A DNA stretch of 64,000 bases from Candidatus Binatia bacterium (GCA_965231775.1 OZ246888.1:338853-402852); one strand, 5' to 3'; positions 4,277-53,496 are shown, counted from the first letter of the stretch. The notes: generated by a model from the letters alone, not told the origin. Made by a program: numbers and translations.

Positions 4277-4433
4277 CGGATAGCGTCGTGATGAAGGAGT
4301 AGACGCGCACCTTACACAAAGTCGGCGGCTTTGTCTGTGGCCGACCCGCCCATTGTCTTCCTTCCTCGGAGCGATTACCCTCGCCCCATCAGGCTGCTGT
4401 TCACCTGAGCGGCCGCACACAAGGAGGGAGCGT

Positions 4434-5288
4434 ATGGAATTTGAAACCTTGGCCAGCGGCTACGGACTCGTCGAGGGACCCCGGACCGACGAGCAGAATC
4501 GGCTCTATTATAGCGATGTGCGCGGTGGCGGGGTCTTCCGGCGCAGCCCCGACGGGGAGATTGAAACCTTGCTGGCGGACCGCAAGTTTGTTGGCGGCAT
4601 CGGCTTGAATGCCGGCGGCGGCATCTTGGTGACGGGCCTGTCGCTGGCGCACTGGGACGAGGCGTCCGGCGCGCTGCGGGATATCTTCGCCGAATGGCAG
4701 GGGAAGCCCCTGTTCGGCCTGAACGACCTCACCATGGATGACCAGGGCAGTATTTGGGTCGGTTCGTTTGGCTGCAATATCCATGAGTTCGATTTTAAGA
4801 GCACGCCACCACCGGGCTCGCTCTTCCGCATCGATCCACCGGGCCAGGTGACGCACCTCTGGGAGGGGGTGGAGGTGACCAACGGCCTGGGCTTCAGTCC
4901 GGACCGTAAATTGCTCTACCACTGTGATTCAACCACCAAGGCCGTCTGGGCCTATGGGGTGCGGGCCGACCGCACCGTCAGCGACCGGCAACTGTTCGCG
5001 CAGCTACCCGAGGGCATGCCCGACGGCATGACCGTTGATGTCGAAGGCGGGGTGTGGGTCGCCACGGTGGCCGGGCGGGGTGAGATCGTGCGTTTCAAAC
5101 CGGACGGCACGGTCGACCGGCGCATCAAGGTGCCGGCCAAAACGGTCACCAGCGTGGCCTTTGGCGGCCCCGACATGTCGGACCTGTACGTGGTCACCGC
5201 CAACAACGATCAACGCGAGCTCAAGGGCAGCGTCTTTCGGGCGCGTTCGGATATTCCTGGGCTGCCCGTACCCCAGGCACGCTTCTAA
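4434..5288 (+). CDS. SMP-30/gluconolactonase/LRE-family protein
   Basis: Beta-propeller lactonase-like sequence (YYSDV..GGV.R, NGLGFSPD, DGMTVD). RBS aaggaggg lies 6 nt upstream of the ATG at 4434. Confidence 0.8.
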   Translation: MEFETLASGYGLVEGPRTDEQNRLYYSDVRGGGVFRRSPDGEIETLLADRKFVGGIGLNAGGGILVTGLSLAHWDEASGALRDIFAEWQGKPLFGLNDLTMDDQGSIWVGSFGCNIHEFDFKSTPPPGSLFRIDPPGQVTHLWEGVEVTNGLGFSPDRKLLYHCDSTTKAVWAYGVRADRTVSDRQLFAQLPEGMPDGMTVDVEGGVWVATVAGRGEIVRFKPDGTVDRRIKVPAKTVTSVAFGGPDMSDLYVVTANNDQRELKGSVFRARSDIPGLPVPQARF

Positions 5289-5299
5289 GGAGGGAACCA

Positions 5300-5967
5300 T
5301 GTTAAAGTTTATGGCCGCTGTTCGGCGTCTGGATCATATTTCGCACGATGAGCTGGTCCACGCCTGGGAACACATTCACGCCCCGCATGTCGTTTCGCTG
5401 GTCAAGCCGGAACGCTATCGCATCACCTTCTTCGACCCGCCCTCGGACAGCGCCGATGCGGACAGCCGTCCACCGGACGGTATGGCCGAGCTGTGGTTCC
5501 GGGATAGAGAGCATTTTGAGACCACGATCGGACGGCAGGCCCCGCCCAATATAGACGCCGACAAATTCAGTACCTATGCCGCCATCCAACCGGGCTGCAA
5601 TCTGTTTGTGACCGAGCATCTCAACGTTGATGGGCCGACGACCCGCGACACCACCAAGCTCACCTTCTTTATCAAGAGACGCCAGGGAATCGAGCGCGCC
5701 CACCTGGACGACTACTGGCTGAAGGTCCATGTGCCGAACGTTGTTGCGGCCATCAATAATACGCCGGACGCGGTACGCTATTCCGTGGACTTGGTGGATC
5801 AGGCCGAGTCTGAGCGAGAGCGCACCTACGACGGCGTGGCCCAAATCTGCATCGACCATGCCAACGCCACCTTCGCCGACATCCAGGGCTATGAGCCGGA
5901 CGGTTTCGGCGAGCTGGTCGAACCCATGCTGGTGGTTAGTGGGCACGAGGTGCGTATTGTGGGCTGA
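5300..5967 (+). CDS. tandem EthD-like / dimeric alpha+beta-barrel protein
   Basis: Two internal repeats, each with the EthD-like pattern (HxxxH..P, W..VHVP). RBS aaggaggg precedes the ATG at 5300. Its last ~58 codons have a divergent second copy at 10859-11032. Confidence 0.6.
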
Positions 5968-5970
5968 CTG

Positions 5971-6243
5971 GTGTCGGGAACGACAATGAACGGGAACGAA
6001 CGCTCTATACCCCGAGATTTTGATCGAGATACGGCACCAGACCTGTCTAGGGACGGCTGGCCGGAGAAGTTCGCCAAGGCGACTGTCCGCCGTGGCCGGC
6101 TACCGGTCGCCAAACCGAAAGTGTCAACGACCATCCGTCTGTCACAGGACGTGATCGATCACTTCAAGGCCGGCGGTCGCGGCTGGCAGACGCGAATCGA
6201 TAAGGCGCTCCGCGAGTGGATCTGGAAACATAACGCCGCGTGA
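5971..6243 (+). CDS. BrnA-family ribbon-helix-helix protein (orphan)
   Basis: C-terminus KVSTTIRLSQDVIDHFKAGGRGWQTRIDKALREWI matches the BrnA/COG3514 signature (TIRLDxDVLDWFKAQGKGYQTRINAVLRAY). Starts 4 nt after the EthD stop. No BrnT-like ORF is adjacent. Confidence 0.6.
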   Translation: MSGTTMNGNERSIPRDFDRDTAPDLSRDGWPEKFAKATVRRGRLPVAKPKVSTTIRLSQDVIDHFKAGGRGWQTRIDKALREWIWKHNAA

Positions 6244-6268
6244 TGATGGATCGGCTGCGTGACCTTAC

Positions 6269-6519
6269 TCAGCTTCCATCCGCGAGAAGTGCCTTGAGCT
6301 TGGCTTCCGTCAAGCCGTTCGTGGATGCCTCCTCGCCCAAGGCATCCATCGTCATTGTCAGGCGTTCCCAGGCAGCGCCACGAAGTTGCTCATAGTGTTC
6401 ACCGACATCATCACGCCGACCACCCTGCCTTTCTTGGTCACACGCACGGGGGCGCGCTGCACAGCGTCAAGCAAATAGCCGAAGCGATTCTTGGCATCCC
6501 TGGCGGTAATTTCTTTCAT
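6269..6519 (-). pseudogene. Phd/YefM-family antitoxin, frameshifted (1-nt deletion near 6392)
   Basis: Manual translation: MKEITARDAKNRFGYLLDAVQRAPVRVTKKGRVVGVMMS, then a frame break. The next frame continues EHYEQLRGAAWERLTMTMDALGEEASTNGLTEAKLKALLADGS. Rejoined, this gives a typical ~83-aa Phd/YefM antitoxin. No cognate toxin gene is present. Confidence 0.55.
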
Positions 6520-6559
6520 GGGGGATGTAATAGCTACTATGCTCTCTTCTCACAATGAG

Positions 6560-6632
6560 AGATCACATCTTATAACTACAAATTATATGTATAATAAGGC
6601 ACGCCGTTATTTTCTTAAAGGCATAGAGTGAA
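6560..6632 (+). promoter_or_regulatory. AT-rich putative promoter region upstream of the STAND gene
   Basis: AT-rich stretch ...tacaaattatatgtataataaggcacg... containing a TATAAT-like hexamer, in an otherwise GC-rich context and immediately 5' of the 6633 ATG. Confidence 0.35.
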
Positions 6633-9600
6633 ATGTTTGACATCTCCAAGGATCAACTGCGCCAACTCAACGATGTGGATTTACGAGAATTGGTCGCTCG
6701 TTTGTGTGAAGCGGAATTGAGTCGCGCAGGGGCACCAGTCAGCGCGGTGAGATGGGGTGGTGCTCAGACCGCTCCCGATGGGGGCTTAGATGTTGAAATC
6801 CTAGTCAAAGACCAAGAGTTTGCAGGCGACTTCGTACCCCGTACTTGGACCGGAATTCAGGTCAAGAAATCAAACATGCCGGCTAGCAAGATCGCCGAGG
6901 AAATGTCTCCCAAAGGAGTTCTGAGACCCATCTTCCCGGAGCTTGCGAGACATAACGGCTGCTACATCATCGTTAGCCTGGCCGATGATCCCGCTGGCAC
7001 CAATCTTGGTGATCGAGAGAAGGCAATGCAGACGCAGATCGAGCCGGTCAAGGACCAGGGAGACCTGCGAGTAGAGTTTTACGGATGCGGCCGTCTTGCC
7101 GACCGGCTGCGTCAGCATCCTGGTGTCCAGCTTTGGGTGTGCGAAAAGCTGGGCTTGCCGTTGAGTGGATGGAGGCCGTTCGGGAGGTGGAGTACGACAC
7201 CGCCGGGCGTTGAGGACGACCTGATCTGCGAAGCGGGTGTTACTATTGCGCTTCCGGGAGGGAGGGACAAGTTAGATATCGCGCAAGGAATAGATGGAAT
7301 CCGAGAACTTATAAGAAGCTCAGGCAAAACGGTGCGGATTGTCGGTCTATCCGGGGTTGGTAAATCCCGAATCGTCCAAGCTTTGTTTGAAGAAACCGTC
7401 GGAGACAGACCCCTCGACAGACACCGTGCGATATACGCGGACCTTGGTGAGGTACCGGACCCGCCACCCCGAACGGTTCTTGGGCGTCTTGCTGCTGAAA
7501 AACATCTAGCAATCATAGTATTGGACAACTGTTCGTCCGATGTACACAACCGAATTGCTAGCCAAGCTGCTTCCTCGTCAAACCTTCGCCTTGTCACGGT
7601 CGAATACGACATCCGAGAGGACAAGCCCGAAGAGACCAGGGTTGTTCGGATTGATGCCGAAGGCCCCGAAATAGCTGAAACGCTAATTAAAAGACGGCAC
7701 CCTGACCTCGGTCCAGTCAATGCACAACGGGTCGCCGAGTTCTCGGGCGGCAACGCCCGGGTCGCGCTCGCGCTTGCAGACACGGCAAGTGAGGAGAAAG
7801 AAAGCCTTTTAAGTTTCTCCCCTGCACAACTCTTCGACAGGCTATTCTATCAGCGAGGTGCACCCGACGCAGACCTGCTCAAGGCTGCTGAGGTTTTGGC
7901 GCTCGTATACTCGTTTTCCATTAGCGCCAATGAAGGCGGTGTGGATGAACTCGCCACGCTTGCCGGATTGCTGGATCAGAATCGACGTGCACTACACAGG
8001 GAGGCACAAACGCTTGTTGAGCGACAGCTCGCGCAGAAGCGAGGAGCTTGGCGTGCAGTTTTGCCACATGCACTGTCCAATCGGCTTGCTAAAAGGGCAC
8101 TCGAAAATATCCCCGTTGACGACATCCTCAATACTTTTCAAGGGCTATCAAATCCTCGCCTGCTGAAGTCGTTCGGAAAACGTCTTGGATATCTCCATGA
8201 TCACGAGATCTCACAGGATATCGTCAAATCCTGGCTATCACCCGGTGGACTATTGCACGACCTGTATCTGCTTGATGAAGATGGTATCCAACTCCTTCTG
8301 AATGTGGCTCCGGTAGCTCCAGAAGATGTCTTGAACGCCATTGAGGCTCAGGATACAGGCGGAACAACTGAAATATCCTTCTCTAGGGGAAGTCTACGCC
8401 TCAGGGGAAACTCGCGCCTCTCTACATTTGCGGATCTCTTAGTCGCGATCGCATATGACCCCGATCTCTTCGAAAGATGCGTCGTCCGCCTAGCCAAGTT
8501 TGCTCTGATGGAAACAGAAGAAGAGGGGGAAAATGTCAGTGGTATACGGGGCCGTCTCTATGGTCTGTTTTCATTGTATTTTTCGGAGACCGAGGCTGGC
8601 CCAGACGCTCGTGAGCATGTTGCTCGCCGTTTTTTGTCAAGTGGAGACCGAAACGAACAGAGGCTTGGCTTGGGGATGCTCAGGGCAGCGTTGCGGGGTA
8701 CAAATCAGTTCTTGGCTGGGACTGTCGAATTCGGTGCTCGACTAAGGTTCTACGGTTACCATCCCCAGACTCACGAAGAACACGACCAGTGGTTTATACG
8801 GTTTGTTGCGCTAGCGTGGAAGATAGCCACTGGCGAAGATGTATATCTTTCGACTCAAGTGCGCGCTCTACTCGCGAGCGAGTTACGGGGGCTCTGGGAC
8901 CATTCGGGACTGCGCGAAGCGCTAGTGGATTTAGCGATGGCCCTCAATGAGCAGCGGCCTTGGCTGGAAGGTTGGCGGGCTGTCCGACAAATCAAGCACT
9001 ACGACTATCGCAGGACCCGTGGTACCAAATTATTAGATAAGCTCGATGAGATGCCAGAGTCAGAGCGACCGTCCGATAAAGAAACCAAAACCTATGTTCT
9101 CAGCGCACGATTATTAGATAAGCTGGATGAGACGCTGAAACCAAGAGGACTTGCCGATGAGGTCAGAACCTATGTTCTCAGAGCAGATCACGAACTGTCT
9201 ACCTTGGATGAAGAGTTCGACTTCGATGACAATCAGAGCTGGCAGGAGGCAAACAAACGCGCGGCTGCAAGGGCCTACGACCTTGGTACAGTCGTGGCAG
9301 ATGAGTCGAACGTCCTGAATGAGCTATCGGAGGAGCTCTTCACGGCTCAGAACGGCTATCTCTTTGAATTTGGGAAGGGTGTAGCGTCGAAGTGTAATGA
9401 CCTACAAGGTCTTTGGGAGCGTCTTATTGAGTGGCTCGAACTCGCTGGCGATCAGGCGTGCCATGGTGGTGTCTTGAATGGCGTCCTTAAGGTTACTCAC
9501 GAGCGCGATGAACCGTTAGCACAGAAAATCCTTGATGAAGCGGTACAAAAACGCATTCTCAGAAAATTCATTGTCAGCCTCCAGGTATCGGTTCCATTAG

Positions 9601-10559
9601 GTGATACAGGCGTTTACCGTCTTCACAGGTCACTCGACTTCGAAGATACGCCACTGCGACAATTCGGCAACCTTGCTTGGCATCGTCCGCTCAACACGCT
9701 AAGCGAAGCAGATATTCGGGACCTGATGCTAAAGATGTTGGGCAGGCCTGAAGGCGCTGAAGTCGTCCTTGATGGCTTGAGTATGCGACTGCACGTGTTG
9801 AAAAATGACAACCTCACCTTGGGCCCTGACCTCAAAGGAGCAGGCATACTTGCCTCCGCCGCACTGCTACGCCATAGAGCGGATTATTACGATGGTGGCT
9901 CAATCGATCTTCACCTGTCGGAAGTCTTGAAGTCCTGCATGGACGAAGTCGAGTTTCCCACAGAGACCGGTGAAGTCTTCGATGCGTTTCTCACCAGATT
10001 GAGAGCGTCGTATGGCTACGTGAGTGGTATAGAGAAGGCAGTAGCGGTTCTGGCGGAGAAGACAACATTTCGATTCCTCGATGGCATCTTCCTTGATGCT
10101 GCGCTTAAGGACTATCGCCACACGATTTTTCGGGTAGGGCGTGACGAGGAAAACCCGCTTTCTGGTGTCTCCGTTACGACACTATTAGATTGGTGTGGGC
10201 AAGACGACTTTCAGGAACGGCTGATCATGCTCTCGGAAGCGATTTATCCGTTTGAAAAAGAGCCAGAGGGTGATGGCATCGTATTGTCAGAACAAGCATA
10301 TGCCATTATAGACGCAACACAGGACCCCTCTACAGTTCTGAGAAATTTCTGCTCTTCTGCGAGGCCTAATGGATGGTCGGGGAGTTTGGCGAACATCATC
10401 GCGAAGCGAGGCCAGGCTTTTATGACATTGTTAGAGCATGGCCAATCCGATATCCGCGATGCGGCCGCAGCACAAATCGCTCAAATCAATCAGTGGGAAG
10501 AACAGCAGCGAAGCTACGAGCGGGCCGGGGATGAACAACGTGAGCAGCGTTTTGAGTAA
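6633..10559 (+). CDS. Avs/AVAST-like antiviral STAND NTPase with N-terminal Mrr-like PD-(D/E)xK nuclease domain
   Basis: N-terminus (aa 15-125) matches the Mrr_cat pattern: LRELVARLCEAEL...PDGGLDVEI...GIQVKK...CYIIVSLA (D...QxK). Walker A GLSGVGKS is at aa 238-245 (nt 7344-7367). Walker B is LAIIVLDNC. About 850 aa of helical-repeat C-terminus follow. Compositionally lower GC than the flanks. Confidence 0.65.
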   Translation: MFDISKDQLRQLNDVDLRELVARLCEAELSRAGAPVSAVRWGGAQTAPDGGLDVEILVKDQEFAGDFVPRTWTGIQVKKSNMPASKIAEEMSPKGVLRPIFPELARHNGCYIIVSLADDPAGTNLGDREKAMQTQIEPVKDQGDLRVEFYGCGRLADRLRQHPGVQLWVCEKLGLPLSGWRPFGRWSTTPPGVEDDLICEAGVTIALPGGRDKLDIAQGIDGIRELIRSSGKTVRIVGLSGVGKSRIVQALFEETVGDRPLDRHRAIYADLGEVPDPPPRTVLGRLAAEKHLAIIVLDNCSSDVHNRIASQAASSSNLRLVTVEYDIREDKPEETRVVRIDAEGPEIAETLIKRRHPDLGPVNAQRVAEFSGGNARVALALADTASEEKESLLSFSPAQLFDRLFYQRGAPDADLLKAAEVLALVYSFSISANEGGVDELATLAGLLDQNRRALHREAQTLVERQLAQKRGAWRAVLPHALSNRLAKRALENIPVDDILNTFQGLSNPRLLKSFGKRLGYLHDHEISQDIVKSWLSPGGLLHDLYLLDEDGIQLLLNVAPVAPEDVLNAIEAQDTGGTTEISFSRGSLRLRGNSRLSTFADLLVAIAYDPDLFERCVVRLAKFALMETEEEGENVSGIRGRLYGLFSLYFSETEAGPDAREHVARRFLSSGDRNEQRLGLGMLRAALRGTNQFLAGTVEFGARLRFYGYHPQTHEEHDQWFIRFVALAWKIATGEDVYLSTQVRALLASELRGLWDHSGLREALVDLAMALNEQRPWLEGWRAVRQIKHYDYRRTRGTKLLDKLDEMPESERPSDKETKTYVLSARLLDKLDETLKPRGLADEVRTYVLRADHELSTLDEEFDFDDNQSWQEANKRAAARAYDLGTVVADESNVLNELSEELFTAQNGYLFEFGKGVASKCNDLQGLWERLIEWLELAGDQACHGGVLNGVLKVTHERDEPLAQKILDEAVQKRILRKFIVSLQVSVPLGDTGVYRLHRSLDFEDTPLRQFGNLAWHRPLNTLSEADIRDLMLKMLGRPEGAEVVLDGLSMRLHVLKNDNLTLGPDLKGAGILASAALLRHRADYYDGGSIDLHLSEVLKSCMDEVEFPTETGEVFDAFLTRLRASYGYVSGIEKAVAVLAEKTTFRFLDGIFLDAALKDYRHTIFRVGRDEENPLSGVSVTTLLDWCGQDDFQERLIMLSEAIYPFEKEPEGDGIVLSEQAYAIIDATQDPSTVLRNFCSSARPNGWSGSLANIIAKRGQAFMTLLEHGQSDIRDAAAAQIAQINQWEEQQRSYERAGDEQREQRFE
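9030..9191 (+). repeat. in-frame tandem duplication (2 x 81 nt) inside the STAND gene C-terminal region
   Basis: ttattagataagctcgatgag...aaaacctatgttctcagcgcacga is directly followed by ttattagataagctggatgag...agaacctatgttctcagagcagat. The peptide repeat is LLDKLDEMPESERPSDKETKTYVLSA / LLDKLDETLKPRGLADEVRTYVLRA. Confidence 0.8.
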
Positions 10560-10608
10560 CTGTACGGAGCGCAAATATCCGAACGGTTGAGGGAAAGGTA
10601 GGCTTATC

Positions 10609-10869
10609 ATGAGTGGATACGATAAACCCCTCACCCCCAGACAGATCGCGACCACGAAGGACGAGAGCATCGATTTCAGCGATATTCCTGAGTTGGATGA
10701 GACCTTCTGGCAGCAGGCGGAACTCGTCGAACCCGACCTCACCGACCAGATTACCCTGCGTGTCAAACGGTCCGTGTTGGCCTATTTCAAGGCTCCGGGA
10801 AAGGGCTACCAGACGCGGATCAACCAGGTGCTCGAAAGCTACGTGCGGTCGCAACGCGGACCTGGTTGA
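10609..10869 (+). CDS. BrnA-family ribbon-helix-helix protein (orphan)
   Basis: ELDETFWQQAELVEP...ITLRVKRSVLAYFKAPGKGYQTRINQVLESYV is the BrnA/COG3514 signature. It starts 49 nt after the STAND gene stop. Its last 11 nt overlap the start of the EthD-like fragment. Confidence 0.6.
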   Translation: MSGYDKPLTPRQIATTKDESIDFSDIPELDETFWQQAELVEPDLTDQITLRVKRSVLAYFKAPGKGYQTRINQVLESYVRSQRGPG

Positions 10870-11032
10870 TCTGACCGATTCTGAGCGTGCTTACGGTGGC
10901 GTCGTACAAATCTGTATCGATCATCCCAACGCCACATTCGCGGATATTCAGGGCTATGAGCCAGACGGTTTTGGTGAGTCGGTCAAACCCATGCTGGTAA
11001 TCAGTAGGCATGAGGTTCATATTGTGAGTTGA
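10859..11032 (+). pseudogene. 3'-terminal fragment (~57 codons) of an EthD-like gene, divergent copy of 5788-5967
   Basis: DLVDLTDSERAYGGVVQICIDHPNATFADIQGYEPDGFGESVKPMLVISRHEVHIVS* aligns with DLVDQAESERERTYDGVAQICIDHANATFADIQGYEPDGFGELVEPMLVVSGHEVRIVG* of the intact gene. No start codon or N-terminal half. Third codon positions are AT-shifted relative to the intact copy. Confidence 0.75.
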
Positions 11033-11068
11033 TATAGGGGAGGCGGGGAAACCCATAGGGAAATCTAC

Positions 11069-12274
11069 ATGAGGCAGAGCATAGGCAAACATTCTGGCGT
11101 ATTGCTCTGTCTTCTCCTCTCCCATCTTCTGCTTGCTCCTTCGCTCTCTTCCGCGCAGGACACAGACGACCAGACGCGCGGGTTGCAACTCGACGGGTGG
11201 CAGGGAACGCGGCCAGCGCCACAACAAACTCCCCGGCCCTCTTCCCCGCAGCGCTATGCCCCCGCCCGGCCCCAAGTCCTGGAACTGCCGTCGGTCTCGC
11301 AACCGTCTATGCAGACCCTTCCGCGTCAACAGGACATTCCGCCTACGCATCTCCAAAAACGGACTCCAAGACCCACCCAACTCCTCACTGTCACTGTGAC
11401 AGATCAGAACGGTCAATATATCAACGGTCTGACCCCCGAGGATTTTATCATCTACGAAGGGGGCCAGTCTCAGCTCATTACCTATTTTAATACTGGCCAA
11501 CAGGAGCCGGTCAGTCTGGGCCTCCTGGTTGACATGAGTGAAAGCATGCACGGCAAACGGCGCCGGGCCGTCCTTGCCCTGCGGAGTTTTGCTCAAGCGA
11601 TTAAACCCGGCGATGAGGTTTTTCTTCTAGGGTTTAATCACCAGCTCACGATCTTACAGGACTTTACCGACAGTCCCAGCCTGTTGACGCAGGCTACGGC
11701 CGGTCTCCAGCCGAGCGGCGAGACGGCCCTGTACGACGCCGTGTTGGGCGGTCTGCAACGCATCCAACGCGGCCAGCGTCAGAAGAAAGCCCTCATCCTC
11801 ATGAGTGATGGCCTGGATACCTCAAGCACGGCCTCACGTGAAGACGCTTTTCGGGCGGCGCGGGAAGCCAACCTTCTCATATACACCATCGGTATCGGTA
11901 ATCTCAGCCAAGGTGTCCGAAGCCAGCGGATGCCCATGTGGGGGATGGGCGGGATGGGACGAATGGGCGGGATGGGTGGTCCCTTCATGCCCAGTCGGGG
12001 CCGGCCCAATCTTGGCTCGGTGGATGTTGACCTGCTGCAATCGCTGAGTGACACGACCGGTGCCCAACATTTTTTTCTGAATACGAAAGATATTCTGGGG
12101 AGCCATACAGTACTCGAACAAGCAACCCAGACCATTGCCCACGAACTTCGCCAGCAATACAGCATCGGCTACCTCTCGCCCCTCAAGGGAGATGTCTACC
12201 GCGACGTTCAAGTCGAGACGCGACATCCACAACATCAAGGACTCATCGTGCGGACGCATAAGGGGACGGGGTAG
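11069..12274 (+). CDS. secreted von Willebrand factor A (VWA) domain protein
   Basis: Signal peptide (LLCLLLSHLLLAPSLSSA) and a Pro/Gln-rich linker. VWA/MIDAS-like region DMSESM...SDGLDTSS. Gly-Met repeat MGGMGRMGGMGG. Confidence 0.65.
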   Translation: MRQSIGKHSGVLLCLLLSHLLLAPSLSSAQDTDDQTRGLQLDGWQGTRPAPQQTPRPSSPQRYAPARPQVLELPSVSQPSMQTLPRQQDIPPTHLQKRTPRPTQLLTVTVTDQNGQYINGLTPEDFIIYEGGQSQLITYFNTGQQEPVSLGLLVDMSESMHGKRRRAVLALRSFAQAIKPGDEVFLLGFNHQLTILQDFTDSPSLLTQATAGLQPSGETALYDAVLGGLQRIQRGQRQKKALILMSDGLDTSSTASREDAFRAAREANLLIYTIGIGNLSQGVRSQRMPMWGMGGMGRMGGMGGPFMPSRGRPNLGSVDVDLLQSLSDTTGAQHFFLNTKDILGSHTVLEQATQTIAHELRQQYSIGYLSPLKGDVYRDVQVETRHPQHQGLIVRTHKGTG

Positions 12275-12355
12275 CCCGCGTTTCCCCTTGCCTCCGCCGC
12301 CCGTCTCTTATATTTCTGGTTTTTTCACAGCAGTTTCACAGCAGGAGGACAGACT

Positions 12356-13705
12356 ATGCATTTCATGTGGTTCACGGAACGTGCGTATCACTACGACCCG
12401 GAAGAACATCCGGAGCAATACCGCGACCTCGAAAACGAGATTATTCGCAAACGCAGCTTTTTCGGGACGCCAAACCGCTATTTTGATCGCCAGCACGGCG
12501 CGCGGCTGCTCAATCAGTATCTCGACGAGAAGATCTATACCGACCAGGAGCTGATGAACTTTGACGGCATTATGCTCAACGAGCACCATGCCAACCCCTT
12601 CTGCCTGGGCGCGGTCATGGATGTCGAAGCCTCGGTCCTGGCCAAGGCGACCAGCCGGGTCAGAATGGCGCTGCTCGGCAACCCGGTTCCGACCGTATCG
12701 AACGCGCTCCGGCTGGCCGAAGAGCTGGCCATGATCGACCTGATCTCCAACGGCCGCCTGATCTCCGGCTGGGTGCGTGGCGCGGGCAGCGAACAGCTCG
12801 CCAATAATGCCAACCCGGCCTTTAATCGCGAATATTTTGAAGAGGGCATCGACTTTATCATCAAGTCGTGGACCAAACCCGGCCCGTTTCGGTATGAGGG
12901 CAAGCACTTCCACTTCCGGCACGTCAATCCCTGGGTGCTGCCCGTCCAAGAGCCGCATCCGCCCTTCTGGATTCCCGGTCTCATCAGCCCCGAAACGGTC
13001 GCGTGGTGCGCCAAGAATCGCTATCCCTACGTGGCCCTGGCCACCCGACTCGAACCGACCCTGGAGCTGTGGGATTTCTACAATACAGCCGCAGCCCGTG
13101 AAGGCTATCAGGCCGGGCCGGAGAATTTTGGCTATCTGCAACCCGTCATGGTCGCGGATACGCAGGAACGCGCGGAAGAAATGGGCAAGCGCATTCTGTA
13201 CGGTGGCGCCTTTGCGCATTTCGCCCGGCCCGAATGGATGTTCCCGCCGGGCTATAACTCGAAAGCGGCCACCCGCCGGCTGGCCCGGACGAACTTCGGC
13301 GTGAATGCCTCTGCCGGGCCGCTGTACGGTGAGGGCGGGGAAACGACGGTCGAAGAGATCGAGGCCGTCAAAAAGACTATTTACGATAGCTATCCCGGTG
13401 TCCTCAAAGATATGGTCATGATCGCGGGTACGCCGGACAACGTGATTCCGAAGCTCAAGAAAATCCAGGATATCCTGCGTCCGGGCATCTTCTCCTTCTG
13501 GCTGGACGGCCCGGTGCCGGCCAAGGACCGGATGCGCTGTCTGGAACTGCTCAACCGCGACGTCATTCCGGTCATGCGCGAGCACGGCAAGACGCTGGGG
13601 CTGGTTGACCCGTTTGAGCAAAAACCCGGCTCCCGGCCGCTGGCCAACGGCCGGCCCGAGCCCGTCAGCGATGCCGAGGCTTTGGCCGAGTTGATGGCCG
13701 CCTAA
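12356..13705 (+). CDS. LLM-class flavin-dependent oxidoreductase (luciferase-like monooxygenase)
   Basis: Luciferase-like TIM-barrel pattern (NEHHANPF, LISNGRL..GW). RBS aggagg precedes the ATG. Paralog of 57139-58479. Confidence 0.8.
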   Translation: MHFMWFTERAYHYDPEEHPEQYRDLENEIIRKRSFFGTPNRYFDRQHGARLLNQYLDEKIYTDQELMNFDGIMLNEHHANPFCLGAVMDVEASVLAKATSRVRMALLGNPVPTVSNALRLAEELAMIDLISNGRLISGWVRGAGSEQLANNANPAFNREYFEEGIDFIIKSWTKPGPFRYEGKHFHFRHVNPWVLPVQEPHPPFWIPGLISPETVAWCAKNRYPYVALATRLEPTLELWDFYNTAAAREGYQAGPENFGYLQPVMVADTQERAEEMGKRILYGGAFAHFARPEWMFPPGYNSKAATRRLARTNFGVNASAGPLYGEGGETTVEEIEAVKKTIYDSYPGVLKDMVMIAGTPDNVIPKLKKIQDILRPGIFSFWLDGPVPAKDRMRCLELLNRDVIPVMREHGKTLGLVDPFEQKPGSRPLANGRPEPVSDAEALAELMAA

Positions 13706-13718
13706 GGTTCATCTTGTT

Positions 13719-13746
13719 GACCGGCTCCTGCAAGCGGGAGCCGGTC
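13719..13746 (+). terminator. GC-rich hairpin downstream of the LLM gene (terminator-like)
   Basis: gaccggctcc-tgcaagc-gggagccggtc forms a 10-bp perfect stem. No U-tract follows. Confidence 0.35.
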
Positions 13747-13798
13747 AGTCTATCTCCCAACCCCAACTGCATCCTTCCGCGATGAGGGGAGAACAGCA

Positions 13799-14608
13799 AT
13801 GAGCGATATCGATCCAACCCAGCGCGGCTTTGTCAGCTATATCGACAAATCGCGCGAATACTACTTGGCGAAGGGCTACGGCAATCCCTACCGCTGGGCG
13901 TCCAACCCGGACGCGCCGTTTACGCCGCTAACCAAGCCGCTGGCTGAAAGCCGGGTCGCTCTGGTCACTACCGCGGCCCCGGACTTGCAAGGCGGACGGA
14001 AGCGCAGCCGCTATGCCGCGGCCACCCGACCTGCCCCCGAGGCGCTCTACACCCGGCACCTGTCGTGGCACAAAACGGCGACCCATACCGACGATGTCGA
14101 AACCTTCCTGCCGGTCCGCCGCTTAACCGAGTACGTGACCGAAGGCCGGCTGGGCAGCCTGTCGCCGCGCTTTTACGGCGTGCCCACGGTCTATAGTGCG
14201 CGCCAGACAGTTCAGGAGGATGCCCCGGCCGTGCTCGACTTCTGTCGTGAGGATAGGGTCGATATTGCCCTGCTGGTCGCCCTGTGACCGGTGTGTCACC
14301 AGACCGTGAGTCTGGTCGCCCGACATCTGGAGACGCAGGGTATTCCCACGGTCGTCCTCGGCTCGGCGCGCGATATTGTCGAGCAGTGTGGCGTGCCGCG
14401 CTTTGTCTTTACCGACTTTCCGCTCGGCAATCCGTGCGGCAAGCCCGACGACACGGCTATGCAGCGGGCTATCGTCGGCATGGCGCTCGACCTGCTTGAG
14501 ACCGCCCGCTATCCGCGCACGACGCTGCAAACGCCCTTTCAGTGGGACGAAACCGGCGAGTGGCGCGCAACGTATATGGAGCTTGCTGAGGACACGCAAG
14601 CGGCGTAG
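13799..14608 (+). CDS. selenoprotein, glycine/sarcosine/betaine/D-proline reductase protein B (GrdB/PrdB) family; selenocysteine encoded by TGA at 14285-14287
   Basis: The track ORFs 13799-14287 and 14291-14608 are in the same frame, separated only by TGA. Read-through gives ...ALLVAL-U-PVCHQTVSL, a UxxC redox motif. A stem-loop ccagac-cgtga-gtctgg starts about 14 nt after the UGA with GU in its loop (bacterial SECIS-like). The N-terminus resembles selenoprotein B family proteins, from recollection. Confidence 0.6.
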
Positions 14609-14649
14609 GGCAATTCATTATTCCGTATAGCCTGCCGGCCCCTGCCGTC

Positions 14650-50146: not shown

Positions 50147-51304
50147 ATGATGCAAGAGATACCAGCGGGAATCATTTCATCGGACGGCCATGTGTGTGAG
50201 CCGGCCAATTGTTATATCGACTATATTGAACCAAAATACCGGGATGTCGCGCCGCGCATCGTGGAACAACCGGACGGCACGGACGCCTTTGTCGTCCACG
50301 GCATGAAGCGGCCGATTCCCCTGGGATTCATTGATGGCGCCGGCTTCACGGTCACGGAGCGCAATAAACGCGCAAAAAAAGCCAAGTTCTCGGATATCCG
50401 TGAGGGAGCCTACGGCGGCCATGCACGGATTCCGTATATGGACCAGGATGGGATTGCGGCTGAAGTCATCTACGCTTCTATTGGGATGGGCCTGTGCATG
50501 CACCGCGACCCCGATTATAAAAACGCCTGCATGTTAGCCTATAACCGTTGGCTGCAAGCCATGTGCGGCGAAGCGCCGAACCGCATCCTGGGTCTGGCCC
50601 AGACGGCGGTCTTGAGCGTGGACAGTGCGATTGAGGATTTCCGGCGCGCCAAGGACATGGGTATGGTCGGCATGATGATGCCCGGTCGGCCCATCTACGA
50701 AGACTATGATCACGCCGACTACGACGCCCTGTGGGAGTGCGCAACGGACCTCGGTCTGCCGATCTGTTTTCATATTCTGACCTCGCGCGACGGCAGCCTG
50801 AACATGCCGCACCGCGGCCATGAGATGAATAATTTTCTGGGCATTATCCGGGCCGTCCAGGATGTTGTCGGCCTCCTGGTCCTGGGTGGCGTCTTCGAGC
50901 GTCATCCGCAATTGAAACTGGTGTGTGCCGAGGGCGACGCCGGCTGGATGCCGCACTATATGTACCGCATGGACCACGCCGCCAAAATTAACGCCGAGGG
51001 CGGAATCATGGACGGCCTGTCACAACTGCCCAGCGCATATATCAAACGCAACGTATGGATGACGTTCCAGGACGACCCGACGGCGTTTCATGCGGTCGAT
51101 ATCATGCCGCACCAGCAACTGCTGTGGGCCAGCGATTTTCCGCATACGGATTCCACCTGGCCGCGCTCCCAGCAATTACTGGCCGACCACGCGGCCCATA
51201 TCACCGAAGAGCAACGCCAGGACATCATGCGCGAGAATGCCGCCAAGCTGTTTAATCTGCCGGCGGGAAAGAAGTCGTGGCGGATGCATGAGGCCCCTGT
51301 GTAG
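50147..51304 (+). CDS. amidohydrolase-2 family protein
   Basis: Paralog of 18880-20004 (ASDFPH motif). Confidence 0.75.
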   Translation: MMQEIPAGIISSDGHVCEPANCYIDYIEPKYRDVAPRIVEQPDGTDAFVVHGMKRPIPLGFIDGAGFTVTERNKRAKKAKFSDIREGAYGGHARIPYMDQDGIAAEVIYASIGMGLCMHRDPDYKNACMLAYNRWLQAMCGEAPNRILGLAQTAVLSVDSAIEDFRRAKDMGMVGMMMPGRPIYEDYDHADYDALWECATDLGLPICFHILTSRDGSLNMPHRGHEMNNFLGIIRAVQDVVGLLVLGGVFERHPQLKLVCAEGDAGWMPHYMYRMDHAAKINAEGGIMDGLSQLPSAYIKRNVWMTFQDDPTAFHAVDIMPHQQLLWASDFPHTDSTWPRSQQLLADHAAHITEEQRQDIMRENAAKLFNLPAGKKSWRMHEAPV

Positions 51305-51308
51305 GGAA

Positions 51309-51345
51309 ACCCTCACCCTGGCCCTCTCCCAGAGGGAGAAGGGAA
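51309..51345. repeat. partial copy of the GC-rich inverted-repeat element found complete at 57037-57132
   Basis: ccctcaccctggccctctcccagagggagaaggg contains the hairpin ccctctccc-aga-gggagaaggg. The first ~37 nt are near-identical to 57040-57076. The second hairpin and the closing outer stem are lacking. Confidence 0.6.
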
Positions 51346-51352
51346 ATGCACT

Positions 51353-51514
51353 TTACGAACTCGGCTGCATGCCAAGGTCCTTTAACGGCGTGCGGTCCAC
51401 GATCGGCAGGCGGCGTGTCCTCGGCGTGAGTTTGACCGAGCCCGGTACGCGGCTGAACTGATCGACCAGGTCGATTTCCTTGGCGTATGTTGCGGGGCTG
51501 GTGAAGTTGCTCAT
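51353..51514 (-). pseudogene. 3' fragment (~50 codons) of an LLM monooxygenase; copy of the 3' end of 57139-58479
   Basis: Minus-strand translation ...YAKEIDLVDQFSRVPGSVKLTPRTRRLPIVDRTPLKDLGMQPSS* aligns with YAKEIELVDQFTRVPGSVKLTPGTRRLPIVDRTPLKDLGLQPKA*. High nucleotide identity over ~150 nt. No N-terminal body. Confidence 0.7.
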
Positions 51515-51573
51515 TGGGTCATCTTAGTATTACGTCTGATGGGTTTATCAATGATTACCCGTCCTCTAATACT

Positions 51574-52206
51574 CTACTTTGAGCGCTCCCATATCCTGCC
51601 GAAATACTCTAAGGTTCTATCGCCGAAGAATAAGAGTGTGATGACAAGGATACCAAAACAGGCACTTGCCCATAACGGCGCGCAAAGCCACTCTGCCCTC
51701 ACAAGGACAAGAAGCGTCCCGAAGACCAAAAACAAAGCGATCGCGGTGAATCCGCTACGCTGGCATCGATTGAGCCAGAAAAGCTTCTCTGTGTTCGGCT
51801 GAACCGCTTGACGACATTCCCACAGTATAGCCGTGATTTCTTCCCGCAGTGCATCTTCATGTGATAGCTCCTGGAAATCATACACGGTTTCCAGCGCCAC
51901 CCGATATGGTTTCCTGACACTCAATACTTTGATCGCATAGAACAACCCTTTTCCTAGGAAAAGGACGCTGGCTAGAAAAGCAACCAGAAGAAGCCACCTG
52001 CTATCCCCGGCGATCTTTACGAGGGATTCAATTCTCGGAACGATGAGGCTAGCAAGGACGCCGAGTATTGCTAGCATCGCCGTGGCGCGGGTCTCAGCAG
52101 CTTTACCACGTTCTACCTCTTGTACCGCACGCTGTTTGACGAATGTGAGTGACTGCTCCAAAACTTTGACATCGTTTGACGTGATACAGTTCCGTATATC
52201 AAGCAT
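51574..52206 (-). CDS. 4-TM membrane protein (last gene of the ATP-grasp operon)
   Basis: Four hydrophobic segments with a ~60-aa soluble insert. Its ATG overlaps the ATP-grasp stop (ATGCTTGA). Low-GC sequence. Confidence 0.5.
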   Translation of the reverse strand: MLDIRNCITSNDVKVLEQSLTFVKQRAVQEVERGKAAETRATAMLAILGVLASLIVPRIESLVKIAGDSRWLLLVAFLASVLFLGKGLFYAIKVLSVRKPYRVALETVYDFQELSHEDALREEITAILWECRQAVQPNTEKLFWLNRCQRSGFTAIALFLVFGTLLVLVRAEWLCAPLWASACFGILVITLLFFGDRTLEYFGRIWERSK

Positions 52207-53182: not shown

Positions 53183-53412
53183 CCCTCATCCTCGGGATCA
53201 GGATCATCGTCACCGGGGGCTGCGAAAGTCTTAGACTCAGTCCTAATAGAATCCTCTTTAGAAACCAGGGGAGACCTCGTTCCATCCCGGGTTACGATAT
53301 TGATCTGTTGGTCTTCATCATAGTGAACGACTACATCTTCCAACTCGTACTGTTTTGCAGTCACAAGAAGGTACGCACGTTTTCCAGTCACTAGACCCCT
53401 CCTATCCTCCAT
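53173..53412 (-). CDS. small acidic protein; candidate graspetide precursor peptide
   Basis: 79 aa. Its stop overlaps the ATP-grasp start by 10 nt. The C-terminal region TRDGTRSPLVSKEDSIRTESKTFAAPGDDDPDPEDEGCY is rich in Thr/Ser/Lys donors and Asp/Glu acceptors. Confidence 0.4.
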   Translation of the reverse strand: MEDRRGLVTGKRAYLLVTAKQYELEDVVVHYDEDQQINIVTRDGTRSPLVSKEDSIRTESKTFAAPGDDDPDPEDEGCY

Positions 53413-53496
53413 GGACGTTATCTTCTGGCATGTCCCGAATGGCTCCCTTAAACGGACTCCAATAATAGCCGAAGGGGAGACTTGAAGAATATTCCT

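What the first reader, a model, noticed from the sequence alone, without database searches (positions are those of the whole stretch)
5968..11040. Lower-GC insertion (island 1) lodged in the 3' end of an EthD-like gene, with a divergent displaced 3' copy and no recombinase
- The intact EthD-like gene ends at 5967.
- About 4.9 kb later, at 10859-11032, comes a second copy of only its last ~57 codons. It is in the same orientation and ends in a stop.
- The copy is about 80% identical at nucleotide level and AT-shifted at third positions.
- Everything between looks lower in G+C by eye than the flanking genes: two BrnA-like genes, a Phd pseudogene and a 1308-aa STAND nuclease.
- The layout [intact gene][cargo][3' gene fragment] is the footprint of site-specific integration into a gene's 3' end, or of co-transfer of donor flanking DNA.
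- Neither an integrase, a transposase nor short direct repeats are visible.
- The fragment is foreign-looking and the intact 3' end is host-looking. That is the reverse of the simplest attL/attR expectation, so the mechanism is genuinely unclear.
Basis: seen in the sequence. Interest (0 to 1): 0.7.

Follow-up and report, generated by a model that had tools for sequence, protein, structure and literature searches.

The report
Old scar in a defence hotspot
The duplicated gene tail is real, but it is an old, decaying scar in a fast-changing slot between two core genes of Binatia bacteria where anti-phage and toxin-antitoxin genes are swapped in and out; the low-GC cargo is a known anti-phage sensor gene (Avs8), so this is an ordinary defence hotspot.

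Summary
Observation confirmed. EthD (5296-5967) has a second copy of its last ~56 codons at 10855-11032 (78-83% identity, E 1e-37), and G+C drops between them.

- The low-GC, odd-tetranucleotide stretch is only ~6250-10600. It is essentially one gene, a full-length PD-lambda-4A/Avs8 homologue. BrnA1 and BrnA2 are close to host composition.
- About 25 related Candidatus Binatia assemblies show that the EthD-to-luciferase-like interval is hypervariable, from 112 bp to over 10 kb. It holds TA modules, R-M genes, a SIR2-STAND gene and one integrase relic.
- The fragment, with BrnA2 and VWA, occurs in relatives that lack Avs8.
- Phd-Avs8-BrnA2-fragment lies at this locus in L080, L081 and L170 (VWA called in L080/L081 only) and Avs8-BrnA2 in L171, about as diverged as the flanks.
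- The fragment is therefore an older shared scar, not the footprint of the Avs8 insertion.
- It evolves as a pseudogene: a frameshift in three relatives, substitutions spread evenly over codon positions, and 17 of 21 ancestral differences GC-to-AT. This can explain its foreign look.
- Relatives carry further EthD-tail repeats of 30-82 nt at cassette borders, so insertion at the EthD stop codon recurs.

Whether by att-type or one-sided homologous recombination is unresolved. Interest is low to moderate.

The parts
5296..5967 (+). Intact EthD-family gene. It is the left core flank of the hotspot.
   Evidence: Pfam EthD 2.4e-14; NCBIfam TIGR02118. Orthologues of 85-98% aa identity, with the same MFS and SGL neighbours, occur in 20 close relatives (L001-L019, L036), and in L080, L090 and L170 as well.
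5938..5985 (+). Recurrent junction block: the last 30 nt of EthD, the TGA stop, and the conserved CTGGTGTCGGGAACGACA.
   Evidence: The same block recurs as displaced copies of 30-82 nt in L001, L005, L008, L009, L011, L012, L013, L036 and L090. Each copy is followed by TTGGTGTCGG.
5986..6243 (+). BrnA1, an orphan BrnA-like antitoxin gene 18 nt after the EthD stop. The ORF can also start at GTG 5971.
   Evidence: Pfam BrnA_antitoxin 1.6e-19. It has the same position in L002, L007 and L008, and a different position in other relatives. No BrnT was found.
6268..6595 (-). Phd/YefM antitoxin pseudogene (6268-6519) with its promoter region.
   Evidence: Pfam PhdYeFM 1.2e-08 on the N-terminal 41 aa. 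It is frameshifted relative to the intact 83-aa gene of L080. The module is shared at 86-88% identity with 10 relatives, where it heads a Phd-PIN operon.
6613..10585 (+). Avs8 / PD-lambda-4A cassette (CDS 6633-10559). This is the only clearly foreign-composition DNA.
   Evidence: PADLOC PD-Lambda-4_A, 1166 bits, full length. Invariant D53, Q76xK78, Walker A G238-K244 and D298. GC3 is 0.53. Similarity to homologues in other contexts starts at 6613/6616 and, in L082, ends at 10585.
10595..10869 (+). BrnA2 with its ribosome-binding region (CDS 10609-10869).
   Evidence: Pfam BrnA_antitoxin 7e-13. It follows Avs8 in the window, L080, L081, L170 and L171. It follows BrnA1 directly in six other relatives.
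10855..11032 (+). Displaced EthD 3' fragment ('F184'), a pseudogene.
   Evidence: establish the copy. It is shared with L003, L005, L006, L080, L081 and L170, with L004 (76-nt remnant), and with 5' remnants in L010, L011, L015 and L171. It shows a neutral substitution pattern, and L080, L081 and L170 carry a frameshift.
11033..12274 (+). Conserved 36-nt spacer plus the VWA-domain gene (11069-12274). This is itself variable hotspot content.
   Evidence: Pfam VWA_2, and TIGR03436 at 8.6e-49. It is present in only some relatives. The spacer is 97-100% conserved.
12275..13705 (+). Right border of the hotspot (12275-12282) and the luciferase-like monooxygenase gene (12356-13705), the right core flank.
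   Evidence: In the relatives that retain the Lux flank intact within the stretch held, similarity to the window resumes at 12275-12282. Pfam Bac_luciferase 3.4e-27.

Best explanation
The region is one state of a hypervariable defence and toxin-antitoxin hotspot. The hotspot lies between two core genes of a Candidatus Binatia lineage: EthD on the left and a luciferase-like monooxygenase on the right.

Cargo (shown). The low-GC cargo is a single gene for an Avs8 (PD-lambda-4A) STAND immune sensor with an N-terminal Mrr-type nuclease. By homology it should sense phage major capsid protein and cut DNA.

How the gene sits here.
- Shown: it occupies the slot between a Phd antitoxin promoter and BrnA2 as a bare gene, with about 20 nt of upstream and 26 nt of downstream sequence of its own.
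- Inferred: it has been resident at this locus across several species, and has been lost or replaced in most.

The fragment.
- Shown: the EthD 3' fragment is an older scar, unrelated to the arrival of Avs8.
- Inferred: DNA anchored by homology in EthD was joined in at or near the EthD stop codon, ahead of the then-downstream VWA gene. This left a second EthD tail.
- Inferred: the same kind of event later recurred several times in relatives, giving repeats of 30, 61-66 and 82 nt.
- Shown: the scar then evolved without coding constraint, and occasional gene conversion from the intact copy took place.
- Inferred: its differences from the intact tail are mostly GC-to-AT, which would make it look foreign. 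Polarising these changes with the only outgroup was inconclusive.

Mechanism (unresolved). Content is mainly exchanged between lineages by homologous recombination in the conserved flanks and shared modules, so no recombinase is needed in cis. The original joins could be att-type site-specific events or one-sided homologous plus illegitimate recombination. Neither has been shown.
For: Hotspot:
- The EthD-Lux interval ranges from 112 bp (L017) to over 10 kb, with different cargo in nearly every relative.
- That cargo includes a SIR2-NB-ARC-TPR protein plus an HNH protein, a type II MTase with a GHKL ATPase, DUF6414, PIN-VapB, HigBA-like modules, an integrase relic and a DDE transposase.
- The right border is fixed at window 12275-12282.
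- The closest relative, L001 (4-fold divergence ~0.09-0.10), shares only the Phd module and BrnA1 (plus a partial second EthD-tail/BrnA1 junction) with the window's hotspot. It lacks Avs8, BrnA2, this fragment and VWA.

Avs8:
- PADLOC full-length hit and conserved catalytic motifs.
- Literature on Avs8: bioRxiv 10.1101/2025.07.02.662641 and 10.64898/2026.01.04.697583.
- Homologues elsewhere are solo genes beside R-M systems.
- Similarity to L082 is limited to 6616-10585.

Residence at this locus:
- L080, L081, L170 and L171 carry Avs8-BrnA2 in the same hotspot.
- Window versus L080 4-fold divergence is 0.22 for Avs8, against 0.15-0.35 for the core flanks.

The fragment is older than, and independent of, Avs8:
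- BrnA2-fragment-VWA occurs without Avs8 in L003, L005 and L006. L004 keeps a 76-nt remnant of the fragment plus VWA.
- 5' remnants of the fragment occur in L010, L011, L015 and L171.

Pseudogene behaviour:
- A 1-nt deletion in L080, also visible in L170 and present in L081.
- Private changes fall 5/6/9 by codon position, against 27/12/122 in intact copies (Fisher p 0.007).
- 17 of 21 differences between the inferred ancestors of the intact and fragment copies are G/C in the intact copy and A/T in the fragment.
- Divergence equals the local 4-fold rate.

Gene conversion: seen in L006 and L003.

Recurrent tail repeats: a ~36-nt direct repeat flanks the PIN-VapB cassette, with L080 as its exact empty site. 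A 77-nt repeat lies 9.85 kb apart in L090.
Against: - The differences between the fragment ancestor and the intact ancestor are third-position rich (2/4/15). That pattern resembles coding constraint more than pure decay. Part of the divergence may therefore predate the scar, meaning the tail came from a diverged functional allele or a donor flank.
- Polarising the 21 changes with L019 gave 9 on the intact branch and 8 on the fragment branch, so AT-biased decay of the fragment is not established.
- No relative shows a clean EthD|VWA empty junction. L019 has 585 nt between them.
- No species tree was built. 'Ancestral with losses' versus 'spread by recombination' is not formally resolved for any module.
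- BrnA2 and VWA are less diverged between the window and L080 (0-0.10) than the flanks, which points to recent exchange.
- All comparison genomes are metagenome assemblies. Misassembly in a repeat-rich hotspot cannot be excluded for any individual locus.
Confidence: 0.75

Rival explanations
1. Tandem accretion of integrative elements. The last ~36-50 bp of EthD plus ~15 bp downstream would be a true attachment site. Successive elements integrated there by a tyrosine (or other) recombinase, each leaving an attR-like EthD tail, and then lost their integrases. The result would be a CIME-like array.
For: - All displaced tails are in direct orientation and run to the stop codon.
- The 30-82-nt class is followed by the same TTGGTGTCGG, whereas a cassette placed directly after the intact gene diverges right after TGA.
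- The PIN-VapB cassette has a ~36-nt direct repeat and a precise empty site.
- L090 has a 77-nt repeat plus a 40-nt repeat spanning the stop codon.
- L014 carries a frameshifted tyrosine integrase, truncated by an IS3 element, inside the hotspot.
Against: - No intact integrase lies next to EthD in any of the ~25 loci.
- The L014 relic is 94-96% identical to ICE integrases that, in L088, sit beside a tRNA-like 3' end rather than EthD.
- Repeat lengths vary (30, 61-66, 76, 82, 156-184 nt).
- No identical core longer than 14 nt survives in the window.
- No circular form has been observed.
Confidence: 0.3
2. Donor-flank co-transfer by one-sided homologous plus illegitimate recombination (sequential displacement). 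Incoming DNA from a relative's EthD locus paired within EthD, and its far end joined illegitimately inside or near the recipient's EthD tail. For the 184-nt fragment specifically, the tail and VWA may derive from a relative with lower GC3.
For: - Stem substitutions are third-position biased, like those of functional copies (2/4/15).
- The fragment ancestor, the intact ancestor and the L019 tail are roughly equidistant.
- VWA has GC3 0.64, below the core value of ~0.77.
- The distant relative L019 has EthD-VWA-Lux synteny.
- Variable repeat lengths are what illegitimate joins would give.
- The same logic is proposed for strings of orphaned 3' regions in T6SS, Rhs and CDI loci (PMC5361080).
Against: - At protein level the fragment ancestor is closest to the same clade (45/49), and no other lineage matches better.
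- No donor configuration or junction microhomology could be examined.
- Illegitimate joins would not obviously favour the stop codon so consistently.
Confidence: 0.35
3. One reading: 5968-11040 is one recently acquired ~5-kb island that integrated into the EthD 3' end and generated the fragment.
For: The layout, and the G+C drop between the two copies.
Against: - The fragment occurs without Avs8 in several relatives.
- BrnA1 and BrnA2 are adjacent in six relatives.
- The low-GC DNA is confined to 6250-10600.
- Avs8 divergence between species matches that of the flanks.
Confidence: 0.04
4. The fragment is the remnant of a second, tandem EthD paralogue whose 5' part was deleted.
For: The copies are 78-83% identical and lie in the same orientation. 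Deletions are frequent in the hotspot.
Against: - No relative retains a longer second copy. The maximum is ~184 nt, always starting at the BrnA2 stop codon.
- Younger short tails of 30-82 nt show that partial duplication of the tail is the recurrent process.
Confidence: 0.08

Closest known systems
Core defence hotspots flanked by conserved genes (P. aeruginosa cDHS1/2, PMC10250203; E. coli defence-island hotspots, PMC10121019)
   Same: - Fixed core-gene flanks.
- Content that differs between close relatives, with sizes from ~0.1 to over 10 kb.
- Lower G+C than the surrounding genome.
- Enrichment for defence genes.
- Usually no mobility genes.
- Exchange by homologous recombination in the flanks has been proposed for these hotspots.
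   Different: - This one is in uncultured Candidatus Binatia.
- It is small and rich in orphan antitoxin genes.
- It is marked by a series of displaced copies of the left flank gene's 3' end. The Pseudomonas paper argues that exchange by flank homology would leave no MGE-derived scars.
Avs8 / PD-lambda-4 (Vassallo et al. 2022 system; bioRxiv 10.1101/2025.07.02.662641; 10.64898/2026.01.04.697583)
   Same: - Full-length HMM match.
- Mrr-type D-QxK motif.
- Walker A and Walker B motifs.
- A long C-terminal region.
- Homologues are solo genes in defence islands.
   Different: - No Avs8B-like partner. In this hotspot a BrnA-like gene follows instead.
- Only sequence-level evidence was obtained here. 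There was no phage test and no Pfam or PDB sequence match.
Accretion of integrative elements and cis-mobilizable elements at the 3' end of protein genes (reviewed in PMC5704250)
   Same: [intact gene][cargo][gene 3' fragment] repeated in tandem, with elements lacking their own recombinase.
   Different: - No functional integrase is associated with the site.
- Repeat lengths are variable.
- Excision has not been observed.
Sequential displacement arrays of orphaned 3' regions (T6SS effector-immunity arrays, Rhs/CDI loci; PMC5361080)
   Same: A constant 5' anchor gene is followed by a string of displaced 3' ends with small downstream genes. One-sided homologous plus illegitimate recombination has been proposed as the mechanism.
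   Different: - The EthD tails are near-identical copies, not alternative toxin domains.
- EthD is not a polymorphic toxin.
- The downstream genes are antitoxin-like or defence genes, not cognate immunity genes.

Membership tests
Avs8 / PD-lambda-4A | Full-length similarity to the PD-Lambda-4_A profile | tested here: met
   PDLC03991, 1166 bits; residues 1-1308 match profile positions 3-1283 of 1283.
Avs8 / PD-lambda-4A | N-terminal Mrr-type PD-(D/E)xK nuclease | tested here: inconclusive
   D53 and Q76-x-K78 are invariant in 15 homologues of 50-85% identity. However, no Pfam family matched residues 1-203 and there was no PDB sequence match. The fold was not modelled.
Avs8 / PD-lambda-4A | STAND P-loop NTPase with Walker A and Walker B | tested here: met
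   Invariant G238-L-S-G-x-G-K244 and L297-D298. A weak AAA_16 hit covers the same site.
Avs8 / PD-lambda-4A | Second gene, Avs8B (reported as dispensable) | tested here: not met
   The downstream gene is BrnA-like and has no PADLOC hit. Homologues in L082, L083 and L086 have no conserved partner.
Avs8 / PD-lambda-4A | Anti-phage activity triggered by major capsid protein | not testable with these tools
   Known only from the literature for E. coli Avs8.
Site-specific integrative island in a gene's 3' end | Recombinase encoded in the element | tested here: not met
   None in 5968-11040. tblastn with the L014-type integrase finds only the L014 relic among 25 loci.
Site-specific integrative island in a gene's 3' end | Direct repeats (attL/attR) that include the target gene's 3' end | tested here: met
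   150-184 nt at 78-83% identity in the window. The longest exact core is only 14 nt.
Site-specific integrative island in a gene's 3' end | An empty site in relatives whose borders match the repeats | tested here: not met
   No relative has EthD joined to VWA at these borders. An exact empty site does exist for a different, younger cassette: PIN-VapB in L005 against L080.
Site-specific integrative island in a gene's 3' end | Excision to a circular form | not testable with these tools
   Needs read-level or experimental data.
Core defence hotspot | Conserved flanking core genes with variable content in close relatives | tested here: met
   MFS-SGL-EthD on the left in all 20 close loci, and Lux-orf162 on the right in most (Lux was not reached within the stretch held for L012 and L018 and is largely deleted in L015). 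The interval is 112 bp to over 10 kb.
Core defence hotspot | Enrichment for defence systems | tested here: met
   Avs8; SIR2-NB-ARC-TPR, an HNH protein, a type II MTase with a GHKL ATPase, and DUF6414. Some cargo is not defensive, for example glycosyltransferases in L001.
BrnTA toxin-antitoxin | BrnA antitoxin domain | tested here: met
   PF14384 at 1.6e-19 and 7e-13.
BrnTA toxin-antitoxin | Cognate BrnT toxin gene immediately upstream | tested here: not met
   Upstream of BrnA1 is EthD, and upstream of BrnA2 is Avs8 (or BrnA1 in relatives). No BrnT-like ORF is present.
Sequential displacement by one-sided homologous plus illegitimate recombination | Constant anchor gene followed by direct-orientation orphaned 3' ends | tested here: met
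Sequential displacement by one-sided homologous plus illegitimate recombination | Microhomology at the illegitimate joins, and an identifiable donor configuration | not tested
   No donor loci were found for any junction.

The most novel reading that the evidence does not exclude
The EthD stop-codon region (about 36 nt of coding tail plus TTGGTGTCGGGAACG) may be a dedicated attachment site. A recombinase acting in trans would load and stack recombinase-less cassettes there, both TA modules and single defence genes such as Avs8. This would be a chromosomal cassette array in Binatia, functionally analogous to integrons or Xer/pdif modules but using a protein gene's tail as the recombination site.
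Probability: 0.15. Interest if true: 0.6.

Novelty: new member of a known kind. Interest (0 to 1): 0.3.

Why it matters
- It documents a compact defence and TA hotspot in an uncultured class, Candidatus Binatia, and places an Avs8 capsid-sensing immune gene there.
- It gives a clear example of how a core gene's displaced tail can mislead composition-based reasoning. An old pseudogene scar that differs mostly by GC-to-AT changes looks 'foreign'.
- The nested series of EthD-tail repeats across about 25 genomes is a useful natural record of how integrase-free hotspots are built. It could be used to decide between att-type and one-sided homologous insertion.
- None of this changes current concepts.

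Tried and rejected
Approaches that led nowhere:
- Exact-sequence look-ups of the window's EthD and 1308-aa proteins, and of P0075, found nothing.
- The PDB sequence search, Rfam scan and tRNA scan of the region were empty.
- Pfam on the Avs8 N-terminus gave nothing.
- The single metagenome scan added only one close locus, L090.

The integrase relic:
- The integrase relic in L014 looked like the missing recombinase.
- Its intact relatives belong to ICEs with F-type transfer genes and, in L088, sit beside a tRNA-like 3' end rather than EthD.
- I therefore treat it as weak evidence only.

A foreign donor lineage for the fragment:
- C-termini of 74 EthD homologues were compared, and the same clade is closest.
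- Polarising the substitutions with L019 is confounded by that genome's own low G+C.

Ideas considered and rejected:
- BrnA2 as an Avs8 partner. It also occurs without Avs8, and Avs8 homologues elsewhere lack it.
- A polymorphic-toxin (Rhs/CDI-like) locus. The tails are near-identical and EthD is an enzyme-like family.
- A dif/Xer-like site in the EthD tail, judged by eye. Only a partial match to one arm and no dyad symmetry; not pursued.

Other checks:
- A possible short direct repeat around BrnA1 (TGGTGTCGGGAACGACA against TGGATCGGCTGCGTGACC) is too degenerate to count.
- L017, at first taken as a pristine empty site, actually retains a remnant of the BrnA1 start. It is a deletion derivative.

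Full report
**1. The observation**

- SGL lactonase, 4353-5288.
- EthD, 5296-5967.
- A BrnA-like gene at 5971/5986-6243.
- The N-terminal part of a Phd/YefM antitoxin on the minus strand, 6358-6519.
- A 1308-aa ORF at 6633-10559 with only a weak P-loop hit.
- A second BrnA-like gene, 10609-10869.
- A VWA gene, 11069-12274.
- A luciferase-like monooxygenase, 12356-13705.

The second copy of the EthD tail is real.
- MAFFT gives 83% mean column identity.
- blastn gives 77.7% over 184 nt with E 1.2e-37.
- The repeat finder gives 150 ungapped nt at 80%, and this is the only long repeat in 5200-12400.
- The copy has a 6-nt deletion and ends in TGA.
- The longest exact runs are 14, 13 and 10 nt.

There is no tRNA in the whole window, no Rfam match in 5000-12600, and no integrase or transposase domain in the region. 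The Phd gene is frameshifted after about residue 41 relative to an intact 83-aa orthologue.

**2. Composition**

The G+C drop is genuine but narrower than stated.
- 6250-10594 has G+C 0.528. That is rank 3 of 597 windows of this size, against a window-wide mean of 0.592 (sd 0.025).
- Tetranucleotide distance is an outlier only at 7-11 kb, and again at 51-53 kb.

| Feature | GC3 |
|---|---|
| Core genes | 0.74-0.79 |
| BrnA2 | 0.72 |
| BrnA1 | 0.69 |
| VWA | 0.64 |
| 1308-aa gene | 0.53 |
| EthD fragment | 0.48 |

The foreign-looking DNA is therefore essentially one gene plus the fragment.

**3. What the cargo is**

- The 1308-aa protein matches the PADLOC profile PD-Lambda-4_A end to end, at 1166 bits.
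- In an alignment with 14 homologues of 50-85% identity, several motifs are invariant. These are D53 and Q76-x-K78 (the Mrr-type D-QxK motif), the Walker A GLSGxGK(244), and a Walker B aspartate (D298).
- PD-lambda-4A has been renamed Avs8. It is a STAND NTPase with an Mrr nuclease domain that is activated by phage major capsid proteins. Its operon partner Avs8B is dispensable (bioRxiv 10.1101/2025.07.02.662641 and 10.64898/2026.01.04.697583).
- Homologues in other genomes are solo genes beside type I, type ISP or type IIG restriction-modification systems, with no conserved small partner.
- Nucleotide similarity to the homologue at an unrelated locus (L082, 84%) spans only window 6616-10585. 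That is the gene plus 17 nt upstream and 26 nt downstream.
- In L171 the left limit is 6613.

The gene therefore moves as a bare cassette without a promoter-sized leader.

**4. Comparative genomics**

A scan of species-representative genomes with EthD returned 20 Candidatus Binatia loci with 81-98% identical EthD and 10-kb flanks. Further loci came from look-ups of Avs8 homologues and from one metagenome hit.

Synteny by tblastn and blastn shows a conserved left flank (MFS, SGL, EthD) in all and a conserved right flank (Lux, orf162) in most. Lux was not reached within the stretch held for L012 and L018, and is largely deleted in L015. The interval between the flanks is extremely variable.
- L017: 112 bp.
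- L002, L007, L008 and L009: about 1.2 kb.
- L012, L018 and L090: 10 kb or more.
- In loci that retain the Lux flank intact, similarity to the window resumes at 12275-12282, just after the VWA stop codon.

VWA is thus itself variable content.

Cargo in relatives:
- PIN-VapB and Phd-PIN operons, and HigBA-like pairs.
- A 1039-aa SIR2-NB-ARC-TPR protein with an HNH protein.
- A type II methyltransferase with a GHKL ATPase.
- DUF6414.
- Glycosyltransferases.
- A DDE transposase.
- In L014, a frameshifted tyrosine integrase truncated by an IS3 element.

This is the pattern of a core defence hotspot as described for Pseudomonas and E. coli (PMC10250203, PMC10121019).

**5. The 5-kb 'island' is not one unit**

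- No close relative among L001-L019 and L036 has any nucleotide match to window 6596-10594.
- The pieces around it are widespread without it.
- In six relatives (L003, L005, L007, L011, L013, L036), window 6249 is joined directly to window 10595. This is a BrnA1-BrnA2 tandem.
- In L005, the stretch BrnA2-fragment-VWA-Lux is collinear with window 10595-14500 at 92.9%.
- The same fragment type also precedes VWA in L003 and L006. L004 has a 76-nt remnant of it.
- 5' remnants of the fragment attached to BrnA2 survive in L010, L011, L015 and L171, where the rest and VWA have been deleted.
- Conversely, Phd-Avs8-BrnA2-fragment is collinear with the window in L080/L081 (window 6268-14610, 89.1%, with VWA called as a gene). 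It is also collinear in L170 (87.3%), where no VWA gene was called.
- Avs8-BrnA2 lies in the same hotspot in L171.
- The window differs from L080 only by having BrnA1 between EthD and the Phd module. That arrangement is shared with L008.

Four-fold-site divergence, window versus L080:

| Gene | Divergence |
|---|---|
| MFS | 0.29 |
| SGL | 0.35 |
| EthD | 0.18 |
| Avs8 | 0.22 |
| BrnA2 | 0.00 |
| VWA | 0.10 |
| Lux | 0.15 |

Avs8 is as old at this locus as the species split. Its neighbours to the right have been exchanged more recently. The nearest relative, L001 (4-fold divergence about 0.09-0.10), shares only the Phd module and BrnA1 with the window's hotspot. It lacks Avs8, BrnA2, this fragment and VWA.

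**6. The fragment is a decaying pseudogene**

- The copies in L080 and L170 show a 1-nt deletion, and L081 carries it too (its blastn match has the same length as L080's). The window, L005 and L080 share the 6-nt deletion.
- Private substitutions in the three fragments fall 5/6/9 over codon positions. Non-synonymous codon changes outnumber synonymous ones.
- Intact copies give 27/12/122 (Fisher p 0.007).
- Window-to-L080 divergence of the fragment (about 10%) equals the local 4-fold rate.
- Of 21 differences between the inferred fragment ancestor and the intact ancestor, 17 are G/C in the intact copy and A/T in the fragment. Polarising them with L019 put 9 on the intact branch and 8 on the fragment branch, and L019's own low G+C confounds this. 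The direction of change is therefore not established.
- This pattern can account for the 'foreign' third-position composition without requiring a foreign origin.
- The fragment in L006 is almost identical to that genome's own intact tail. The L003 fragment is a mosaic. Gene conversion from the intact copy therefore occurs.
- The 36 nt between the fragment's stop and the VWA start are 97-100% conserved. They probably carry the VWA translation signals.

One caveat remains. The ancestral differences are third-position rich (2/4/15). That is indistinguishable from the pattern in functional copies and is marginally different from the neutral tips. Part of the divergence may therefore have accumulated while the tail belonged to a functional allele of lower GC3. 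At protein level the fragment ancestor is still closest to the same clade (45/49), so no donor lineage can be named.

**7. Recurrent insertion at the EthD stop codon**

Searching the relatives with the last 210 nt of EthD revealed further displaced tails.
- 28-30 nt in L005, L009, L012, L013, L036 and L090.
- 61-66 nt in L008 and L011.
- 82 nt in L001.
- All are in direct orientation and run to the stop codon.
- All are followed by TTGGTGTCGG(GAACG), the sequence that follows the intact gene in genomes with no cassette there: the window, L002, L017 and L080.
- Where a cassette sits directly after the intact gene, similarity breaks immediately after TGA.

Two cases are especially clear.
- The PIN-VapB cassette of about 0.8 kb is flanked by a ~36-nt direct repeat, and L080 is its exact empty site.
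- L090 has a 9.85-kb insert flanked by a 77-nt (90%) repeat plus a 40-nt repeat spanning the stop codon.

The window's 184-nt fragment is simply the oldest and longest of these scars. It sits next to what was then the downstream gene, VWA. The more distant L019 still has EthD-VWA-Lux.

**8. Mechanism**

Shown:
- Content turns over between conserved flanks.
- Shared modules recombine, producing mosaic arrangements and gene conversion.
- Deletions are frequent.

Inferred: present-day exchange needs no recombinase in cis, because homologous recombination in EthD, Lux and the shared TA modules suffices.

How the tail duplications were first made is unresolved between two models.
- *Att-type accretion.* For: constant orientation, a constant end point and a precise empty site. 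Against: no integrase is associated with EthD in about 25 loci. The one relic (L014) is 94-96% identical to ICE integrases that, in L088, lie beside a tRNA-like 3' end.
- *One-sided homologous plus illegitimate recombination.* This is the mechanism proposed for strings of orphaned 3' regions in T6SS, Rhs and CDI loci (PMC5361080). For: variable repeat lengths and the third-position-rich stem. It remains untested, because no donor junction is available.

**9. Verdict**

- The sequence observation is correct.
- The single-island interpretation is not.
- The region is a member of a known kind: a core-gene-flanked defence hotspot carrying an Avs8 homologue, orphan antitoxin genes and an old gene-tail scar.
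- It is a tidy example, and it is in a little-studied class.
- It is not surprising to a specialist.
- The only reading with real novelty is that the EthD tail is a dedicated attachment site for recombinase-less cassettes. The evidence leaves this open at low probability.

Noticed in passing
window 51000-56400: A second compositional outlier (G+C 0.50-0.54, tetranucleotide distance over 1.5 sd). It carries an MmeI-type IIG restriction-modification gene (53497-56334, minus strand) and an MvdD-like ATP-grasp gene (52199-53182, minus strand). It is probably another defence or accessory island.
   Followed up: partly
window 9029-9185: An internal tandem duplication of about 78-81 nt (27 aa, '...LLDKLDE...TYVL...') inside the Avs8 C-terminal region. 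It shows up as two repeat pairs of 91-92% identity and as offset blastn hits to L080, L081 and L170.
   Followed up: no
window 5986-6243 and 10609-10869; L003, L005, L007, L011, L013, L036: Two different BrnA-like antitoxin genes lie in direct tandem in six relatives, with no BrnT toxin gene anywhere nearby. BrnA2 has zero 4-fold divergence between the window and L080, although the flanks differ by 0.15-0.35. The function of these orphan antitoxin-like genes is unexplained.
   Followed up: partly
L090 6309-6427 and 16159-16305: A 9.85-kb insert is bounded by a 77-nt (90%) direct repeat plus a 40-nt direct repeat that span the EthD stop codon. Inside it is a small array of three repeated cassettes (repeat families D1-D5) with 31-34-nt inverted repeats. 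Almost none of its ORFs has a Pfam match.
   Followed up: partly
L014 11107-12429; L088 and L089 9724-10967: The L014 hotspot contains a frameshifted tyrosine integrase cut by an IS3-family element. Intact copies of 96% identity head elements with a second integrase and, in L089, F-type conjugation genes (TraL, TraE, TraK, TrbI, TraV). In L088 the element abuts a tRNA-like 3' end.
   Followed up: yes
L006 12856-13013; L003 11891-12061: Gene conversion between the intact EthD tail and the displaced fragment. The L006 fragment is nearly identical to its own intact copy, and the L003 fragment is a mosaic of intact-type and fragment-type sequence.
   Followed up: yes
window 11033-11068: The 36-nt spacer between the fragment's stop codon and the VWA start is 97-100% identical in L080, L005 and L003, while the adjacent fragment is only 84-93% identical. 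This suggests conserved expression signals for VWA.
   Followed up: no
L010 10754-15863: The same hotspot in another species holds a 1039-aa SIR2-NB-ARC/NACHT-TPR protein and a 362-aa HNH protein. A different STAND-type defence gene thus occupies the slot that Avs8 occupies here.
   Followed up: partly
window 11936-11980: A short in-frame tandem repeat in the VWA gene encodes a Gly/Met-rich stretch (MGGMGRMGGMGG).
   Followed up: no
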